A stretch of 62,353 nt of DNA, filler included, from Caldilineae bacterium (GTDB lineage Bacteria; Chloroflexota; Anaerolineae; DTLA01): the NCBI GenBank assembly GCA_037446815.1. It is 7 parts of 7 records of this genome, joined end to end, with 100 filler letters (N's around TTAATTAATTAA, not from the genome) between each part and the next. Parts side by side here need not be neighbours in the genome. Positions count along the whole stretch, not along the records: positions 1 to 8,959 come from JBBIHX010000122.1; 6 more parts are not named here. The stretch is one strand, 5' to 3'. Position numbers: made by a program. Positions 1 to 6,000 of the stretch are shown here, one piece after another. The number at the start of each line of letters is the position of its first letter. Within the stretch, counting starts at the first letter, position 1.

Positions 1-3000
1 GCAGACGCACCCTCGCCCGCGCGGGCGATGGAGATGGCGTGGATGCGCCTTTGCCGCCCAGGCACTCCTACGCTATAATGCGAATCACGGTACCGAATCC
101 CGCCACAAGGAGGCAGGACATGTCCGCTGGCAAGATTATCGGCTACATCTTCGCGGGGATCGCCATCCTGTTCGGCGTGCTATTCCTCATCGCAGCCTTT
201 GACGGCAGGCCGGTTTCCCAGGCCGTTGGCAACTTCATCATCGCCATCATCCTCATCGGCATCGGCGTGGTCATCATCATCGCCATCAAGATGCGCGAGC
301 CCAAGCCGAAACAGGAGATCATCCAGAAGATTGACGTGTCCGGCGACATCGCCATGGAGCGCCTGAAATGCAAGAACTGCGGCGCGCTTCTGGACAAGGA
401 CAGCATCAAACTGGCCGAAGGTGCCATCGTCATCTCGTGCCCCTACTGCGGCACAACGTACCAAATGGTGGAAGAACCCAAGTGGTAGCCGACCCCGTCG
501 GCTGATTCTGGAGGTTGACCCTATGCGAACAGGCCTCAAATGGCTCGCCCGATTCGCGCTCGTCATCCTGGCGGCAGCCCTGGTCGCCGCGCCCGCCGCG
601 GCCCAGGACTACCGCTTCCAGGTCAACGAGCGCCTCGTGCACGTGTACATCAACGACGATGGCTCCATCTGGATTGACTACAACATCACCTTCACCGCAG
701 ACCCAGGTTCCCATCCCATAGACATCGTGGACATCGGCCTGCCCAGTTACGACTACAACCTGGCCGAGGTGAAAGCGGACGTAGGCGGCGTAGCCATCAC
801 GGACATCCGCCACTCGGAATACGTGAAGCCGGGGATTGAGGTGCACATGGGCAAGTTCACCATCCCGCCCGGCGGCACCGGCTCGCTCCACGTGTTGGCG
901 CGGGTGCGCAACATGGTCTTCCAGGACACGTCGGATCCTGAATACGCCAGCATGGAGTTCATCCCCCACTGGTACGACAGCGCCAACGCCCACGGCACGA
1001 TGCATTTGGAGATCGTGATTCACTTCCCCGAGGGCGTAACGAGCGAGGAGTCGCGGTATCACGACACCAAGTTCACCGACGCGGCCATCGTGGACAATCG
1101 GGTTACCTACGCCTGGATTTACCCCAATGCATCGCCCAGCCAACAGTACAAGGTCGGCGTGTCCTTCCCTAAGAAGTACCTCAAGAGCGGCATTGACCTG
1201 AAGGTTACGCCGGAGCCTCTCCCTCCGGCGGCGGGCGGAACCGACATCACCGACATCCTGTGCAGCGGCCCCATGTGCACCCTCCTGGGCGGCCTTGGGT
1301 TCATCGTCTTCATGGTTGTTGCCATCCGCAGGGGCAATGTCCGCAAGATGAAGTACCTGCCCCCAACGGTGGGCGTGGAGGGCGCGGGCGTCAAGCGCGG
1401 GCTGACGGCGGTGGAAGCGGCCATCCTGCTGGAAGCGCCCCTCAACCGCGTCCTGACCATGATTCTGTTCGGCCTGCTGAAGAAGGGCGCGGTTACGGTG
1501 CTATCCGATGACCCGCTGCGTCTCCAGGCGAACGTGCCCGCGCCGGACGACCTGCGCGACTACGAGAAGGAGTTCCTCACGTGCATTGTGGACAACAGCC
1601 TGGACGAGAAGAAACTTCGGCAGATGATGGTGGGGCTGGTCAAAGCGGTGAATGACAAGATGAAGGGCTTCAGCCGCAAGGACTCGGTCGCCTACTACAA
1701 AGACCTGGTGAGCCGAGCCTGGCAGCAGGTGGAGGCCGCCGAAACGCCCGAAGTCAAGGCCCAGCGGCTGGACGAAGGGCTGGAGTGGACCATGCTGGAC
1801 GAGGATTGGAACAAGCGCGTCGGCCGCACCTTCGGCGACGAGCCGGTGCTCCTGCCGCGGTGGTGGGGATACTATCGCCCCTGGGCCACCAGCACCAGCA
1901 CCGCCTCGGGCGGCACGCAGACTGTATCCGCGCCCAAGACATCCACCGGCGATGCGGGCCGCACCCCCACCATGCCCACGTTGCCGGGCGCGGCCTTCGC
2001 CAATACCATCGTGTCGGGCGTAGAGAGTTTGTCCAACCGCGTCGTGTCCAGCGTGGAGCGCTTCACGGGAAGCATCTCGTCCGTCACCAACCCGCCGCCC
2101 CCGCCGCCCAAGACCAGCAGCAGCGGACGCTGGCGGAGCGGCGGAGGCAGTGGTTGCGCGTGCGCTTGCGCGTGCGCCTGCGCGGGCTGCGCGTGCGCTT
2201 GCGCGGGAGGAGGTCGGTAGCATGGGTCTAGTAAACAGAATTCGCGATTGGTTCACGCCGGAAAAGCCGCTTCAGAAAGGCATCTACCACTACCGCACGC
2301 CCGCGGGCCAGGAGGAGCGGTTCCGCATCCATCTGCGCGTGGAGCCGGACGGGCGGGGCATCTTGGTCATCAACGCCGCCAAGGTCCTCCACCTCAACCA
2401 GACGGCGACAGAACACGCCCGCCTCATCTTGCAGGACAAGTCGCCCGAAGAGGCCGTGCGCGAAATCACGCGCCGCTACCGCGTCAGCAAGGAGCAGGCC
2501 CTCAAGGACTACGAGCACCTACGGGACACGATTCTCACCATGGCCCGCACCGACGACGTGTGCCCCATCACGTACCTGGACGTGGAGCGGATAGACCCCT
2601 TCAAGACGCCCGTCTCGGCCCCGTACCGCATGGACCTGGCCCTCACGTATCGGTGCAACGACGACTGCCCGCACTGTTACGTGGCCCGCGACCGTAACTT
2701 CCCCGAGATGCCCACCGAATCCTGGAAGCGCGTCATTGACCGCATGTGGGACATCGGCGTGCCTCACGTAACCTTCACCGGCGGCGAGGCTACTCTGCGC
2801 AGCGACCTGCCCGAACTCATCCAGTACGCCGAGGACGTGGGCCTGGTAACCGGCCTGCTCACCAACGGGCGCAAACTCGCCGACAAGGCCTATCTCCAGT
2901 CGCTCCTGGACGCAGGCCTGGATCACATCCAGATCACGCTGGAATCCCACGACGAGGCCATCCACAACAAGATGGTGGGGTGCTCCGGCGCCTGGGCCGA

Positions 3001-6000
3001 GACCGTCGCGGGCATCGCCAACGCCGTGGCCGCCGACGTGTACGTCATCACCAACACCACCCTGACCCACGACAACGTCCCGACCATTGAGGACACGATA
3101 GACTTCCTGGCCGAATTGGGCATCCAAACGTTCGCGTGCAACGGGATGATTTACTCCGGCAGGGGCAAAGAGGTGGGCACAGGGTTCACCGAGGCCGAGT
3201 TGCAGGACATCGTCCTGCGGGTCAAGGCCGCGGCGGCGCGCAACAACATGCGCCTCATCTGGTACACGCCGACCCAGTACTGCGAACTGGATCCCATCAA
3301 ACTGGAACTGGGCATCAAGACGTGCACCGCCGCCGAGTTCAACATGTGCGTGGAACCCAACGGCGATGTCATCCCGTGCCAGAGTTACTACAAGCCCCTG
3401 GGCAACATCCTCACCGACGACTGGGATTCCATCTGGAATCACGAGACAGCACGGTGCCTGCGCGACCGCACGTGGATTCAGGAGAAATGCAAGGACTGCC
3501 CGGAACTGGACCTGTGCGGCGGCGGCTGCCCGCTCTACGTGGAGGAGCACGCCTACCGCTGCCTGGACACCCAGTCCAACGCGGTGTAGGAATCTCACCG
3601 CAGAGAGTCCACAGAGACCGCAGAGAGGACACAAGCATTTGTATTTCTCTGCGATCTCCGCGGTGAATCACATCTCCGCGGTGAATCACATCTACCGGAG
3701 ACGAGGCGCGGATGCAGCCAGCCCTGACGCCCGAGGAGTGGGCCGAGCACTTCCGTTGGCAGGCCGAATGGACGCGGGGAGCGAGGAACTACCTGTATCG
3801 CCGCGCCGACCTGTTGCGCGCCCGCCGCGTCCTGGACATGGGGTGCGGCACCGGCGTCATCACCGAGGAGATGGCAGCCCGCACGCGGGGGCGCGTGGTC
3901 GGACTGGACATCAACCCCGCCTTCCTGCGCCTACGCGAAGGGAACGGCGCTTCCTACACGCTGGGCGACGCGCATCGCCTGCCATTTGCCGACCGCACAT
4001 TTGATGTAACGATTTGCCACTTCGTGCTTATGTGGCTTGCAGACCCCCGCCGCGGCCTGGCCGAGATGGTGCGCGTTACCCGCCCAGGCGGTTGGGTGCT
4101 CCTCTGCGCCGAGCCGGACTACGGCGCGCGCCTGGACTACCCCGACCTGCCCCACGCTCGGTGGCATATTGAGGCGCTCCGGCGCGAGGGAGCGGACCCG
4201 TTCATGGGGCGCAAACTCCGCGCCCTGTGCGCCGAGCAGGAGCTGGATGCCGAGGTGGGGTGCCTGTCCGCGCCCTGGACGAGCGAGGCAATCCGCGCCT
4301 CGCTGGACGGCGAATGGGCCACGCTGAACCGCATCACGCGCGAATTCGTGAGCGAGGACGAGCGGCGGGCCGTGCGGGCGCAGGAAGAGGCCGCCATTGC
4401 CCGCGGCGAGCGGTTCGTGTTCATGCCGGTCTTCTACGCGGCGGCGCGAGTCCCCGGATAAGCGCCGCGGGCAAGCCGTGCGGGGTTACCCCCTCACCCC
4501 AGCCCTCTCCCGGTGGGCGAGGGTGCGCTCACCGTCATTCTGCGCGGCGAAGCGCGAAGAATCCCGTGGAGCAAATTGGCAATTTGCTCAACTTTGCCCT
4601 ATCCGTTCAATCCGCGCCATCCGCGGATACAACCCTGGAGATGCTTCGCCTTCGGCTCAGCATGACAGATGGGCGCCAACGTGCGACGCACCTGCGAAAT
4701 GCGTCGCACGTTGGGCCGCCCCCGACGCAACCGGCCTTGACACATCTCACCTAGTTGCGCTATCATCACATGCAGACATCGGCTTGTTGACTATGGGAGC
4801 AAAGGAGTGGGAGCATGTACCAGAATACGATCGTAATCGGCCACCTCGGCGATGACCCCAAGATGCGCTATACACCCTCGGGCCAAGCGGTTACCGATTT
4901 CCGCATCGCCACCACACGCAGGTGGAAAAATGCCAACGGCGAACAGCAGGAAAAGACGACGTGGTTCAGGGTATCGGCGTGGGGAAAACTGGCCGAACTC
5001 TGCAATCAATACCTGGCGAAGGGGCGGCTTGTGCTGGTGGAGGGGGAGATTGACGCTTCCGCCTGGGTGGGCCAGGATGGGCAACCACGCGCCTCGCTGG
5101 AATTGCGCGCCCGCAACGTCCGGTTCCTCGGCGGGCGCGGCGCCCAACCGGAAGAGGCGGGGCTTGTGGATCGCGGGGACATGGGCCTTGAAACCGGAGA
5201 CGACACGCCCTTCTAGTCGCCCCGAGTCCGTCCAAATCTCTTCAGGAGGAGGCCCCAAATGAGCAATCCCCAAGACGGAGGCCGTCCCGTCTCCGTGAAT
5301 GTGGAACTGCCCGCTGACCTGGAAGCCGTGTACGCCAACTTCGTAATGATCACCCATTCGCCGTCGGAGGTGGTTCTGGACTTCGCGCGCATCTTGCCCA
5401 ACATCCCGAAGGCGAAGGTGTACGCGCGCGTGCTGATGACCCCCATGAACGCGAAACTTCTGTTGCGTGCCCTGAGCGAGAACCTACAGAAGTTTGAGGA
5501 GCAGTTCGGCGAAATCAAGACGCCCACCGAAGGATTCGGGCCGGAGCGCCCCATCGGGTTCAAGAAGTAGCGCCATGGCGGACATTCGTTCGTTCGTTGC
5601 GGTGGAACTGGGCGACGATATCAAGAAGCGCCTGGGGGAGATCCAGCGGCAACTGAAAGCCGCGGCTCCAAGCGGCAGCGTGCGCTGGGTGCAGCCGGAG
5701 TCCATCCACGTAACGCTGAAGTTCCTGGGCGACGTGCCGCAAGAGCGCATCGGCGCCATCGTATCGGCGCTAGAGCAGGCGTGCGCTCCCGTGGCCCCGC
5801 TGGCGTTTGCCGTCGCGGGCGCGGGGTGCTTCCCGAACGCGCGCCGGCCCAATGTGGTGTGGGTCGGCGTGGAAGACCCGACGGGCAGGCTCGCCGAGTT
5901 GCAGCGGGCTGTGGAGCGCGCGCTCAACCCGCTGGGCTACCCGCCCGAAGGCCGCCCATTCAAACCTCATCTCACCCTCGGCCGCGCCAACCGCAGCGCG

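What a model noticed while it worked through the whole genome (the two positions that open the first line are those of the whole stretch)
120..4461. A full-size membrane protein ending in an invariant Cys-Ala repeat tail, with its own RRE-radical SAM/SPASM maturase
g02059, a 565-residue single-pass membrane protein (distantly DUF2207-like), ends in the tail GCACACACACAGCACACAGGGR; exactly this tail (CACACAGCACACAGGGR-stop) closes homologous proteins, otherwise only 27-54% identical, in at least 122 genomes of many bacterial phyla and of Asgard archaea, and a PqqD(RRE)-radical SAM-SPASM enzyme (g02060) is encoded beside nearly all of them. I read the tail as the substrate of the SPASM enzyme: a RiPP- or cofactor-style modification (thioether cross-links or other Cys-centred chemistry on the Cys-Ala ladder, perhaps followed by release of a small product as for PQQ or mycofactocin) carried out on the cytoplasmic end of a large membrane protein instead of [...]
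Evidence so far: Tail and gene order read from the DNA. search_genomes, 41 Anaerolineae genomes: 13 with a match at E<=1e-8, 6 (incl. this genome) full length at E<=1e-140. In all 5 full-length orthologues from other genomes (42-91% id) the C-terminus is ...GCACACAC(AC)AGCACACAGGGR; a sixth, 32% identical (L080), ends ...GGGCACAGCACACACAGGGR; columns C549-R565 are invariant in the 7-row alignment whose mean column identity is 52%. A g02060 homologue (54-95% id) is the next gene in 3 of the 3 loci that reach far enough, and lies just upstream in L080; a g02058 homologue (40-94% id, conserved end YQ.(V/I/T)EEPKW) precedes in 5 of 5. A more distant pair (L081) couples a g02060-like gene (34%) to a 613-aa protei [...]
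(Added by a program. Inside this text positions count along the whole contig: they may not be those of the stretch shown here. "Call 12" and the like, gene names such as g00115 and contig names such as C1 are that model's own, and its searches are not shown. The text may have been shortened before it was handed on; [...] marks where a part breaks off. The agent that wrote the report below was given it as the finding of a first reader that could run no searches.)

Follow-up and report, generated by a model that had tools for sequence, protein, structure and literature searches.

The report
Membrane protein Cys-Ala tail with maturase
A large membrane protein that always ends in the same cysteine-alanine ladder is encoded beside its own radical-SAM enzyme in many bacteria and archaea, which points to an undescribed chemical modification made on a full-size protein rather than on a small peptide.

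Summary
Window 120-4461 is a four-gene + strand unit. It encodes a small 2-TM zinc-ribbon protein (g02058), a 565-aa membrane protein ending GCACACACACAGCACACAGGGR (g02059), a PqqD/RRE-radical SAM-SPASM enzyme (g02060) and a class-I methyltransferase.

- **Tail conservation.** In an index-free search, 129 of 150 family representatives carry a Cys-x ladder tail. The other 21 look like fragments or frameshifts. The tail is about 91% conserved, against 45-48% for the folded domains, while its codons vary freely.
- **Co-occurrence.** In 301 Chloroflexota genomes the tail protein and the enzyme occur in the same 24, side by side. None of the other 277 has the enzyme.
- **Range.** The pair reaches Planctomycetota, Thermoplasmatota and a closed Heimdallarchaeum genome. 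Tail subtype tracks enzyme clade.

New here:
- Many loci add a catalytically dead, RRE-bearing paralogue.
- g02058 homologues always end in PKW.
- The ectodomain is ribophorin-I/DUF2207-like.

Best reading (0.6): the enzyme modifies the cytoplasmic Cys ladder, most likely by thioether cross-links. No chemistry is shown. I found no family model, specific name or paper for this system.

The parts
51..79 (+). promoter-like site (TTGCCG-17-TATAAT) ahead of g02058
   Evidence: 10 of 12 matches; 2 sites found in 5 kb against 0.9 expected, so this is weak. No + strand terminator-like site lies between 120 and 4461.
120..488 (+). g02058: 122-aa protein with two TM helices, a C4 zinc ribbon (C84, C87, C107, C110) and an invariant C-terminus E-x-P-K-W
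   Evidence: alignment A4, invariant C84 C87 C107 C110 E118 P120 K121 W122; 119 of 119 homologues end in PKW. It lies upstream of the tail gene in 104 of 109 T1 loci.
523..2220 (+). g02059: 565-aa tail protein, made of signal peptide, beta-sandwich ectodomain, one TM helix, helical cytoplasmic domain, linker and Cys-Ala tail
   Evidence: translation. AlphaFold2 mean pLDDT 86.6, strands 32-216, helix 250-275, helices 296-451 and 489-522, residues 532-557 below pLDDT 50. No Pfam or NCBIfam family.
610..1212 (+). ectodomain (residues 30-230), beta-sandwich
   Evidence: best Foldseek matches are ribophorin I/Ost1 of oligosaccharyltransferase (E 4e-9 to 2e-7, TM 0.26-0.27) and the N-domain of M1 aminopeptidases (about 215 columns); one relative reaches DUF2207 N-domain at 23.9 bits.
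1270..1347 (+). transmembrane helix (residues 250-275), followed by RRGNVRKMK
   Evidence: (helix 250-275) and the sequence. Placing the C-terminal half in the cytoplasm rests on the positive-inside rule and is an inference.
1354..1878 (+). cytoplasmic helical domain (residues 278-452)
   Evidence: pLDDT 84.5, pTM 0.81. GOLPH3 (3kn1) Z 6.5 over 158 residues, Vps74 Z 5.5, next row Z 3.5. Foldseek alone finds nothing below E 0.001.
1987..2094 (+). helical hairpin ending in the conserved motif F-T-x3-T-x2-T-N-P; candidate recognition ('leader-like') segment
   Evidence: F237, T238, T242, T245, N246 and P247 of A3 are at least 90% conserved; helices 489-507 and 511-522. Its role is inferred.
2095..2151 (+). 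Pro/Ser/Gly/Arg-rich flexible linker (residues 525-543)
   Evidence: length and sequence vary; commonest-residue frequency 0.38 and occupancy 0.74; low pLDDT.
2152..2217 (+). Cys-Ala tail, G544-R565: (CA)5-G-(CA)3-GGGR, 8 Cys
   Evidence: commonest-residue frequency 0.91 against 0.45-0.48 in the folded domains; invariant C556 C558 A559 C560 A561 G563.
2206..2213 (+). GGAGGAGG inside the GGG codons of the tail; Shine-Dalgarno-like, 8 nt before the ATG of g02060 (stop 2218-2220, ATG 2222-2224)
   Evidence: It is not universal: GGA is only the commonest codon at these positions in 128 loci.
2222..3589 (+). g02060 (rSAM-A): 455 aa; PqqD/RRE 54-99, radical SAM core 141-296 with C145-x3-C149-x2-C152, SPASM 368-436
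   Evidence: invariant C145 C149 C152 C354 C368 C386 C423 C426 C432 C436, with C376 at least 90% conserved. CX3CX2C in 68 of 68 A-type sequences. No NCBIfam equivalog is reached.
3712..4461 (+). class-I SAM methyltransferase (249 aa), a recurrent member of the module
   Evidence: Methyltransf_11 at 85.3 bits; best NCBIfam is the DVU_1556 family at 70 bits against a cut-off of 155; a homologue lies in 31 of 53 T1, 4 of 12 T2 and 8 of 9 T3 loci with enough flank.

Best explanation
Window 120-4461 is one module of a widespread, so far unnamed protein-maturation system.

**The proposed substrate.** g02059 is a membrane protein with a signal peptide and one TM helix. Its beta-sandwich ectodomain (ribophorin-I/DUF2207-like) faces outward. 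Its helical domain and a disordered C-terminal tail face the cytoplasm.

**The proposed reaction.** The tail is a fixed ladder of alternating Cys and Ala ending in GGGR. It is the substrate of g02060, an active radical SAM enzyme with two auxiliary SPASM clusters and its own peptide-binding RRE domain. The RRE would dock on the conserved segment just upstream (F-T-x3-T-x2-T-N-P). A flexible Ser/Gly/Arg linker would then feed the Cys ladder into the active site.

**The proposed product.** The most likely chemistry is radical formation of intramolecular thioether bridges from Cys sulfur to alpha or beta carbons of neighbouring Ala or Gly. That would give a rigid polycyclic end that stays on the protein. 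The methyltransferase would add a later step.

**Accessory parts.** In many genomes a dead RRE-bearing paralogue acts as a non-catalytic partner. The small zinc-ribbon protein g02058 is another.

**Shown versus inferred.**
- Shown: the gene content, the invariance of the tail, the strict pairing, and the intact catalytic motifs.
- Inferred: the topology, that the tail is the site, the chemistry, and every role of the accessory proteins.
For: 1. **Tail under strong protein-level selection.** 129 of 150 index-free representatives carry a Cys-x ladder. Conservation is 0.91 against 0.45-0.48 for the domains. Codons vary freely.
2. **Strict two-way co-occurrence.** 24 of 24 tail-bearing Chloroflexota genomes have rSAM-A next to the tail gene. 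None of 277 others has it. The enzyme lies elsewhere in all 8 genomes checked that lacked an intact adjacent copy.
3. **Adjacency survives rearrangement.** In T1 and T3 the enzyme is directly downstream. In T2 the order is g02058, rSAM-A, dead paralogue, tail gene, methyltransferase.
4. **Tail subtype follows enzyme clade, not host phylum.** T2 enzymes from Chloroflexota, Planctomycetota and Myxococcota MAGs form one clade with 100% SH-aLRT. The tree needs 3 label changes, against a mean of 14.4 in shuffles (0 of 200 as low).
5. **The minimal pair is tail protein plus rSAM-A.** The profile of the g02058 family finds no match in two Heimdall genomes, one of them closed, and only a weak one (E 6e-5) in a third. 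The window's own genome has no dead paralogue.
6. **The enzyme is of the peptide-maturase kind.** It has RRE, CX3CX2C (68 of 68) and eight conserved SPASM Cys. Its nearest solved relatives are the thioether-forming SkfB (2e-26) and PqqE (1.3e-25).
7. **The tail should be reachable.** It is disordered and on the cytoplasmic side in the model.
8. **One apparent fusion.** In a Thermoguttaceae MAG the dead paralogue is fused in frame to the N-terminus of the tail protein.
Against: - No modification, mass shift or binding is shown. All evidence is comparative.
- Co-occurrence proves partnership with the protein, not that the tail is the site.
- g02058 has its own invariant end (PKW in 119 of 119), and Lys/Trp are known targets of related enzymes (recalled).
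- Seven or eight Cys in a row would also suit a metal or Fe-S site that needs no enzyme.
- The 'core' is invariant while the supposed recognition segment differs between subtypes. That is the reverse of most RiPPs.
- Related genomes are not independent samples. The 24 positives fall in 6 families.
- MAG labels may be wrong: a 'Syntrophothermus' contig nests inside Anaerolinea.
- The thioether proposal rests only on analogy with Cys-modifying RRE-SPASM enzymes.
Confidence: 0.6

Rival explanations
1. The tail is a metal- or iron-sulfur-binding ladder (metallothionein-like) that works unmodified. The radical SAM enzyme only docks on the protein through its RRE, for membrane localisation or cluster hand-over, and acts on something else such as a lipid or small molecule.
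For: There are seven or eight invariant Cys with small spacers. The Cys are fixed while the spacer can be Ala, Val, His, Asp or Tyr. The enzyme also gives weak matches to non-peptide SPASM enzymes such as AhbD, NirJ, BlsE and tetraether synthase.
Against: A simple metal site would not explain a strictly co-inherited RRE-bearing enzyme, a dead RRE paralogue, and tail subtype tracking enzyme clade. Every match to a non-peptide enzyme is far below its family cut-off.
Confidence: 0.12
2. The true or additional substrate is the small zinc-ribbon protein g02058. Its invariant C-terminal Pro-Lys-Trp would be cross-linked or otherwise modified, as Lys-Trp motifs are in streptide-type peptides. The Cys-Ala tail would have another role.
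For: PKW ends 119 of 119 homologues, from Chloroflexota to Thermoplasmatota. The gene is the first of the unit in 104 of 109 T1 loci. It sits directly before rSAM-A in two T2 loci. Two RRE proteins (A and the dead paralogue) could serve two ends.
Against: With its family profile, g02058 was not found in the closed Heimdallarchaeum genome or in a second Heimdall MAG, yet both keep rSAM-A beside the tail gene. Edwardsbacteria loci L015 and L075 have the tail gene without it nearby. The tail protein is the only partner present everywhere the enzyme is.
Confidence: 0.12
3. The tail is a sacrificial scaffold. After modification a small Cys-derived product or cofactor is cut off and released, as for PQQ or mycofactocin.
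For: An invariant C-terminal core with an RRE-SPASM enzyme matches the pattern I recall for PqqA/PqqE and MftA/MftC. PqqE is the best NCBIfam match (144.9 bits). A methyltransferase could tailor a product.
Against: No peptidase or exporter lies in the window's unit. The next genes are SSB, DUF3467, LigT, SLOG, a phosphoribosyltransferase and an ammonium transporter. None recurred in the loci I listed. A 565-aa membrane protein is a costly one-shot scaffold. PqqE and mycofactocin family cut-offs are missed by wide margins.
Confidence: 0.08
4. The shared tail is chance low-complexity sequence or a DNA-level repeat with no function of its own.
For: The coding DNA is a short GC-rich repeat. The number of CA units in the first block varies from 2 to 6.
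Against: The residues are fixed while synonymous codons vary at every position. The last block and the GGGR end are constant across phyla and domains. The tail is twice as conserved as the folded domains.
Confidence: 0.01

Closest known systems
RRE-dependent radical SAM/SPASM thioether maturases of sactipeptides and ranthipeptides (SkfB, AlbA, CteB, PapB)
   Same: The domain order is the same: N-terminal PqqD/RRE, CX3CX2C core, SPASM with auxiliary clusters. The substrate is Cys-rich. SkfB is the best solved-structure match (2e-26). AlbA and SkfB models align from the RRE onward.
   Different: Scores lie far below the family cut-offs: SkfB 90.6 against 300, AlbA 83.2 against 850, StsB 87.6 against 625. 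The presumed substrate is the end of a 565-aa membrane protein, not a 30-60 aa peptide. The core is invariant rather than variable. No protease or exporter is present. A dead paralogue accompanies the enzyme.
PqqE/PqqD with PqqA, and MftC/MftB with MftA (cofactor biogenesis from a peptide's conserved end)
   Same: An RRE plus a SPASM enzyme acts near the C-terminus of a ribosomal product with an invariant target motif (recalled). PqqE is the top NCBIfam match and the second-best PDB match.
   Different: PqqE scores 144.9 against a cut-off of 381, and the mycofactocin maturase 97.8 against 265. The target residues are Cys/Ala, not Glu/Tyr or Val/Tyr. No other genes of those pathways were seen in the window's unit.
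Anaerobic sulfatase-maturating enzyme (anSME/AtsB), and QhpD acting on QhpC
   Same: These are SPASM enzymes that modify Cys (to formylglycine, or into Cys-Asp/Glu thioethers) within a protein that keeps the modification. This rests on recalled knowledge. anSME is a weak PDB match (1.3e-7, SPASM part only).
   Different: anSME has no RRE and recognises a C/S-x-P/A-x-R motif, which the tail lacks. QhpC is a small soluble subunit. Neither target is a repeat ladder on a membrane protein.
DUF2207 family membrane proteins (PF09972/PF20990)
   Same: The layout is similar: an outward beta-rich N-domain, membrane span(s), then a cytoplasmic part with a Gly-rich end (the Gly-rich end is recalled). One relative reaches the DUF2207 N-domain at 23.9 bits over the whole profile. 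An Atlas cluster of DUF2207 proteins scores 0.94.
   Different: g02059 itself has no Pfam match at E <= 0.1. It has one TM helix, a distinct helical cytoplasmic domain, the Cys-Ala tail and the enzyme partner.
TIGR04347 'pseudo-SAM/SPASM' proteins of haloarchaea
   Same: They are a radical-SAM-like paralogue that has lost the cluster cysteines and sits beside a real enzyme, going by the model's name and by recall. It is the second-best NCBIfam match of g02060 (125 bits).
   Different: All scores lie far below the cut-off of 525. The dead paralogue here keeps a PqqD/RRE domain and belongs to the tail-protein module.
Ribophorin I/Ost1 (ectodomain) and GOLPH3/Vps74 (cytoplasmic domain), by fold only
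   Same: Ribophorin I/Ost1 are the best Foldseek matches of the whole model, with a similar order of luminal beta-sandwich, one TM helix and a cytosolic helical part. GOLPH3 stands out for the cytoplasmic domain at Z 6.5 against 3.5 for the next family.
   Different: TM-scores are low (0.26-0.35). There is no sequence-level match: Pfam finds no Ribophorin_I or GPP34 in 7 archaeal members. A shared fold shows no shared function.

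Membership tests
Radical SAM superfamily (PF04055) | CX3CX2C motif for the SAM-binding 4Fe-4S cluster, and a Pfam score above the gathering cut-off | tested here: met
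   C145-x3-C149-x2-C152 is invariant. Pfam scores 88.7 bits against 29.5. The motif is present in 68 of 68 A-type sequences.
SPASM subfamily (PF13186) | C-terminal Cys-rich domain for two auxiliary 4Fe-4S clusters | tested here: met
   Pfam SPASM scores 41.5 bits against 21.5. C354, C368, C386, C423, C426, C432 and C436 are invariant and C376 is at least 90% conserved. Cluster binding itself was not tested.
RRE/PqqD-fused maturases (PF05402) | N-terminal PqqD-like peptide-binding domain | tested here: met
   PqqD scores 27.1 bits against 23.4 at residues 54-99. The dead paralogue also has it at 20-29 bits. Binding to a peptide was not shown.
PqqE (TIGR02109) | score at or above the curated equivalog cut-off | tested here: not met
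   144.9 bits against a cut-off of 381.35.
Mycofactocin maturase MftC (TIGR03962) | score at or above the curated cut-off | tested here: not met
   97.8 bits against 265.
Sactipeptide maturases SkfB / AlbA / StsB (TIGR04403, NF012164, NF045574) | score at or above the curated cut-off | tested here: not met
   90.6 against 300, 83.2 against 850, and 87.6 against 625.
Sactipeptide/ranthipeptide systems | Cys sulfur linked to an alpha, beta or gamma carbon of another residue in the product | not testable with these tools
   This needs mass spectrometry or NMR of the modified tail.
RiPP (in the strict sense) | a short precursor with leader and core, and the mature product released by proteolysis | tested here: inconclusive
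   The 'precursor' is a 565-aa membrane protein. No peptidase or exporter lies in the window's unit or its next six genes. Cleavage cannot be tested here.
DUF2207 (PF09972 / PF20990) | Pfam score at or above the gathering cut-off | tested here: not met
   g02059 has no match at E <= 0.1. One of 48 relatives scores 23.9 against 24.4. One Heimdall member scores 13.3 bits to DUF2207_C. A distant relationship stays likely.
Ribophorin I (PF04597) | sequence-profile match | tested here: not met
   No hit in g02059, in 48 relatives or in 7 archaeal members at E <= 1. There is only a fold-level likeness, TM 0.26.
Pseudo-SAM/SPASM (TIGR04347), for the second paralogue | score at or above the cut-off; loss of the cluster cysteines | tested here: not met
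   35-79 bits against 525. The loss of CX3CX2C (0 of 47, with 1-4 Cys in all) makes it function-like, but it is not a member.

The most novel reading that the evidence does not exclude
A radical SAM enzyme builds a new, permanently protein-borne structure from a fixed Cys-Ala ladder on the cytoplasmic end of a ribophorin-I/DUF2207-like membrane protein. One possibility is a stack of lanthionine-like thioether rings made directly from Cys and Ala. Another is a Cys-derived redox or metal centre. The structure would work there as a cofactor or signalling device. A dead RRE-bearing paralogue and a PKW-ended zinc-ribbon protein would act as dedicated readers or chaperones. The system would be ancient enough to be shared by Chloroflexota, Planctomycetota, Thermoplasmatota and Heimdall archaea.
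Probability: 0.3. Interest if true: 0.88.

Novelty: new variant of a known kind. Interest (0 to 1): 0.72.

Why it matters
**A new substrate class.** RRE-radical SAM/SPASM enzymes are known for tailoring small peptides into antibiotics or cofactors. Here the same machinery is tied, one to one, to the cytoplasmic end of a 550-aa membrane protein. The target sequence is frozen across two domains of life. If the tail is modified, this is a new substrate class and probably new chemistry on a Cys/Ala repeat.

**Scale.** It would give a function to thousands of 'hypothetical' proteins: 3546 tail-protein homologues at E <= 0.001 and 6495 enzyme homologues at E <= 1e-60 among the candidates scored.

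**A handle on related families.** It would offer a way into the unexplained DUF2207-type membrane proteins.

**A testable pseudo-enzyme.** The dead RRE paralogue is a ready case of a pseudo-enzyme partner.

**Practical route.** Two cultured hosts, Bellilinea caldifistulae GOMI-1 and Ornatilinea apprima P3M-1, make the question directly testable.

Tried and rejected
- **Complex prediction.** rSAM-A alignment with the last 80 residues of the tail protein, SAM and three 4Fe-4S clusters. Scores were 0.07 and 0.12 against a mark of 0.32, so no verdict and no controls run. It carries no weight either way.
- **Expression.** No RNA holder was listed for window 120-4461.
- **Literature.** Eight searches found nothing on this system. 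The 14 'CACACA' hits are by their titles and abstract openings unrelated to this system. Nine DUF2207 papers were seen as a listing only, and none concerns this system. Haft and Basu 2011 is recalled but was not found in the library, and I did not read it.
- **Ribophorin I or GPP34 at sequence level.** No Pfam hit.
- **'L010 has a truncated enzyme'.** Rejected. The stretch is masked and reads N/X in that record.
- **'T2 loci lack g02058' (0 of 10 within 3 kb).** Rejected as a flank artefact. With longer DNA it sits directly before rSAM-A in two T2 loci.
- **'The GGAGGAGG ribosome site in the tail explains its conservation'.** Rejected. The GGG codons vary among 128 loci.
- **'The second paralogue is a second enzyme'.** Rejected. 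0 of 47 keep CX3CX2C.
- **Foldseek on the cytoplasmic domain.** Nothing below E 0.001. Only the wider aligner singled out GOLPH3.
- **Rows dropped.**
  - L070's enzyme has an in-frame stop and was left out of A2.
  - L054 and L058 were left out of A2 as near-duplicates.
  - The tree used 53 T1 rows (the window's own and 52 of 100 others, mostly a random sample).
  - A1 holds only representatives of 500-650 aa that begin with Met and carry a Cys tail. It therefore cannot test tail presence.

Full report
**What is in the window.**
- Positions 1-8959 are one short contig of a 3.19-Mb, 93.6%-complete genome. The unit starts 120 bases from a contig end, so nothing upstream can be seen in this genome.
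- Four + strand genes follow each other:
  - g02058 (120-488, 122 aa);
  - g02059 (523-2220, 565 aa);
  - g02060 (2222-3589, 455 aa);
  - a methyltransferase (3712-4461, 249 aa).
- A promoter-like site lies at 51-79, and no + strand terminator-like site lies inside the unit. These are weak consensus matches only.
- The stop of g02059 (2218-2220) is one base from the ATG of g02060. The GGG codons of the tail spell GGAGGAGG eight bases before that ATG.
- The next six genes are SSB, DUF3467, LigT, a SLOG protein, a phosphoribosyltransferase and an ammonium transporter. They look unrelated to the unit.

**The proteins.**
- g02059 has no Pfam or NCBIfam match.
- Its AlphaFold2 model, built from a 112-row alignment, has mean pLDDT 86.6:
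  - an N-terminal hydrophobic helix (2-26) ending AAAQ;
  - a beta-sandwich (32-216);
  - one long helix (250-275) followed by RRGNVRKMK;
  - a helical domain (296-451);
  - a helical hairpin (489-522);
  - an end below pLDDT 50 (532-557).
- By the positive-inside rule the C-terminal half is cytoplasmic. This is an inference.
- g02060 has PqqD/RRE (27.1 bits), Radical_SAM (88.7) and SPASM (41.5), all above cut-off. It reaches no curated NCBIfam family: the best is PqqE at 144.9 against 381.
- In a 55-row alignment of its orthologues, C145, C149 and C152 are invariant and eight SPASM cysteines are conserved, seven invariant and C376 at 90% or more. So are several RRE residues (H37, L38, R39, N51, H57, N59).
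- Its nearest solved relatives by profile are SkfB (2e-26), PqqE (1.3e-25), SuiB (7.7e-16), CteB (3e-9) and anSME (1.3e-7).

**Is the tail really invariant?**
- All 120 listed homologues (44-92% identical) end in CACACACA[G/S]CACACAGGGR, 119 with G and 1 with S.
- All 80 genome loci from a protein-seeded scan do too, 79 with G and 1 with S. Both searches lean on shared words or patterns that include tail letters.
- The fair test is the index-free phmmer run. It gave 877 hits at E <= 0.001. Of the best 150:
  - 74 have the exact tail;
  - 55 have a variant ladder: a 3+4 or 2+4 split of the CA units, a single block of five to six, three blocks with Val spacers, or one with only three Cys;
  - 21 have none.
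- Those 21 are 232-549 aa. In the 18 with a single matched stretch the match ends before query residue 480. For the other three (P0242, P0259, P0269) only the best of several stretches is shown. Two show the tail DNA read out of frame. I could not see their contigs, so 'fragments' is my reading.
- In alignment A1 the commonest-residue frequency is 0.91 for the last 19 residues. It is 0.45 for the ectodomain, 0.48 for the cytoplasmic domain and 0.38 for the linker. A1 was chosen to carry a tail, so it measures identity, not presence.
- In 128 non-redundant T1 loci the residues are fixed while TGC/TGT run near 50:50 and all four Ala codons appear. Selection therefore acts on the peptide, not on the DNA.

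**Distribution.**
I read the 80 loci for which flanking DNA was fetched.
- By record title these include:
  - many Chloroflexota;
  - Planctomycetota, Acidobacteriota/Aminicenantes, Hydrogenedentales, Ca. Sabulitectum, a Polyangiaceae MAG and a Pseudomonadota MAG;
  - Methanomassiliicoccales and other Thermoplasmatota, Hodarchaeota and Heimdallarchaeota;
  - the closed Ca. Heimdallarchaeum aukensis genome.
- The protein-seeded scan added Cloacimonadota, Zixibacteria and Edwardsbacteria MAGs.
- Cultured hosts are Bellilinea caldifistulae GOMI-1 and Ornatilinea apprima P3M-1.
- In 76 of these 80 loci the DNA before the tail encodes a g02059 homologue (27-49% identity). The other four hold less than 260 bases of the gene. 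The tail was not seen on any other protein family.
- One 'Syntrophothermus' contig nests inside Anaerolinea in the enzyme tree, so some labels may reflect binning errors.

**The pairing with the enzyme.**
- In 301 Chloroflexota genomes the tail protein is found in 24 (E <= 1e-10). An rSAM-A orthologue (E <= 1e-109) is found in exactly those 24, each on the same contig next to the tail gene.
- Of the 277 others, none has rSAM-A. One has only a stop-containing remnant of the second paralogue.
- The 24 positives fall in 6 families. Inside one family, 12 of 19 genomes have both genes and 7 have neither. Kin are not independent, so I give no p-value.
- Among 152 unique tail loci:
  - 96 of 115 assessable T1 loci have an intact rSAM-A adjacent;
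  - 10 have only the second paralogue or split pieces of rSAM-A;
  - 9 have neither;
  - 9 of 9 assessable T3 loci have rSAM-A adjacent.
- Of 10 genomes checked that lacked an intact adjacent copy:
  - eight have rSAM-A (45-60% identical) elsewhere in the genome;
  - one has a frameshifted copy in place;
  - one has the stretch masked.
- Three further loci (L095, L125, L141) were not checked.

**Three layouts.**
- T1 has at least three CA units, then G or S, then three CA units (the window has 5+3). Its order is g02058, tail gene, rSAM-A, often a second paralogue, often the methyltransferase.
- T3 has a single block and is archaeal. Its order is tail gene, rSAM-A, methyltransferase.
- T2 has its second block of four CA units. 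Its order is g02058, rSAM-A-like enzyme (45-46% identical), second paralogue, tail gene, methyltransferase.
- In a quick maximum-likelihood tree of 68 rSAM-A sequences, the six T2 enzymes form one clade with 100% SH-aLRT. Their hosts are three Chloroflexota, two Planctomycetota and one Myxococcota.
- The tail label needs 3 changes, against a mean of 14.4 in shuffles (0 of 200 as low). The careful tree search did not finish.
- The segment just before the linker also differs by type. It is F-T-x3-T-x2-T-N-P in T1 and a different motif in T2. That would fit co-evolution of a recognition segment with the RRE, but also plain divergence.

**New finding: a dead paralogue.**
- The second paralogue (33-46% identical to g02060) lacks CX3CX2C in 47 of 47 sequences and has only 1-4 Cys in all. 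All 68 A-type sequences keep the motif.
- It still scores for PqqD and for the radical SAM fold from profile position 20 onward. The T2 version is likewise motif-less.
- The window's own genome has none.
- In one Thermoguttaceae MAG it is fused in frame to the N-terminus of the tail protein, ahead of the hydrophobic start. This is a single case that could be an assembly error. The topology of such a fusion would be consistent.

**New finding: g02058.**
- Its family has two TM helices, a C4 zinc ribbon and an invariant E-x-P-K-W end. PKW ends 119 of 119 homologues.
- It is upstream in 104 of 109 T1 loci and 5 of 8 T3 loci.
- With its profile it was not found in the closed Heimdall genome or in a second Heimdall MAG, and only weakly (E 6e-5) in a third.
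- The only partner present wherever rSAM-A is present is therefore the tail protein.

**Folds.**
- The whole model's best Foldseek matches are ribophorin I/Ost1 of oligosaccharyltransferase (E 4e-9 to 2e-7, TM 0.26-0.27). The N-domain of M1 aminopeptidases follows.
- Two longer relatives add an N-terminal lectin-like domain, which fits an outward-facing ectodomain.
- The cytoplasmic domain was modelled alone (pLDDT 84.5). It has no Foldseek match below E 0.001.
- In the wider search GOLPH3 (Z 6.5 over 158 residues) and Vps74 (Z 5.5) stand above the next row at Z 3.5. These are fold-level leads only.

**How it most likely works.**
- The pattern is a fixed Cys-rich target at the end of a disordered, cytoplasmic linker, paired with an intact RRE-SPASM enzyme that is never found without it. 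Enzyme and tail subtype are inherited together.
- I read this as a maturase and its substrate (confidence 0.6).
- The chemistry is inferred from relatives. RRE-SPASM enzymes that act on Cys-rich peptides mostly make thioether bridges.
- The Cys positions never vary, while the spacers tolerate Val, His, Asp and Tyr.
- An invariant target with no protease or exporter nearby looks more like a cofactor or a functional protein modification than an antibiotic precursor.
- The rivals are an unmodified metal site, g02058 as the substrate, and release of a small product. None is excluded, and each is scored separately.

**Known or new.**
- No Pfam or NCBIfam model covers the tail protein.
- The sources name these proteins only 'hypothetical protein' or 'radical SAM protein (with 4Fe4S-binding SPASM domain)'.
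- Eight full-text searches found nothing on the system. Subscription journals and supplements were not searched.
- I file it as a new variant of a known kind: an RRE-SPASM maturase with a Cys-rich substrate. It is unusual in three ways: the substrate is a full-size membrane protein, the core is invariant, and a dead RRE paralogue accompanies the enzyme.

Noticed in passing
window 1-8959 versus the rest: Only positions 1-8959 belong to the contig that holds this unit (G000:C122). The rest of the 62-kb window is N or other contigs. The unit begins 120 bases from a contig end, so its upstream neighbours are unknown in this genome.
   Followed up: partly
L101 28-3033 (+): In a Thermoguttaceae MAG the motif-less radical-SAM-like paralogue and the tail protein form one 1001-aa open frame. 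The paralogue's last ~50 residues are replaced by the tail protein's hydrophobic start. It is either a Rosetta-stone-like fusion or an assembly error.
   Followed up: partly
L019 (two tail genes, with cytoplasmic segments at 5064-5801 and 6772-7503); L147 (tail ends at 3033 and 5033): Two tail-protein genes lie in tandem in one locus, each with its own Cys-Ala end.
   Followed up: no
P0037 and P0078 (relatives of g02059, 927 and 765 aa): Longer family members carry an extra N-terminal 3-keto-disaccharide hydrolase/LamG-like lectin domain. Other 765-838-aa members have an unassigned N-terminal extension of about 200-250 aa.
   Followed up: no
L168 (record titled Syntrophothermus sp. MAG): Its enzyme nests inside Anaerolinea sequences, next to L113. 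This suggests a mis-binned contig. It is a caution for phylum counts based on MAG titles.
   Followed up: no
L070 3634-5004; also L023/L120, L056, L127, L137, L156 and the L076 genome (G315): Several loci carry rSAM-A with an in-frame stop or split into two frames. These are either decaying copies or sequencing errors in MAGs.
   Followed up: partly
L218 about 3325-3760 (CP070785.1 region): The DNA where the enzyme gene should lie reads as N/X (masked) in the held record. This made the enzyme look truncated.
   Followed up: yes
window 4737-4766 and 4815-8741: A strong promoter-like site (TTGACA-18-TATCAT, 11 of 12) precedes an SSB gene. Next come DUF3467, LigT, a SLOG-cluster4 protein, a phosphoribosyltransferase and, on the minus strand, an ammonium transporter. 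All look unrelated to the tail module.
   Followed up: yes
window 2150-2221 (+), frame of g02060: The g02060 frame stays open 24 codons upstream of its ATG, from a GTG at 2150 across the tail-coding DNA. Orthologues align from the ATG region, so I took 2222 as the start.
   Followed up: partly
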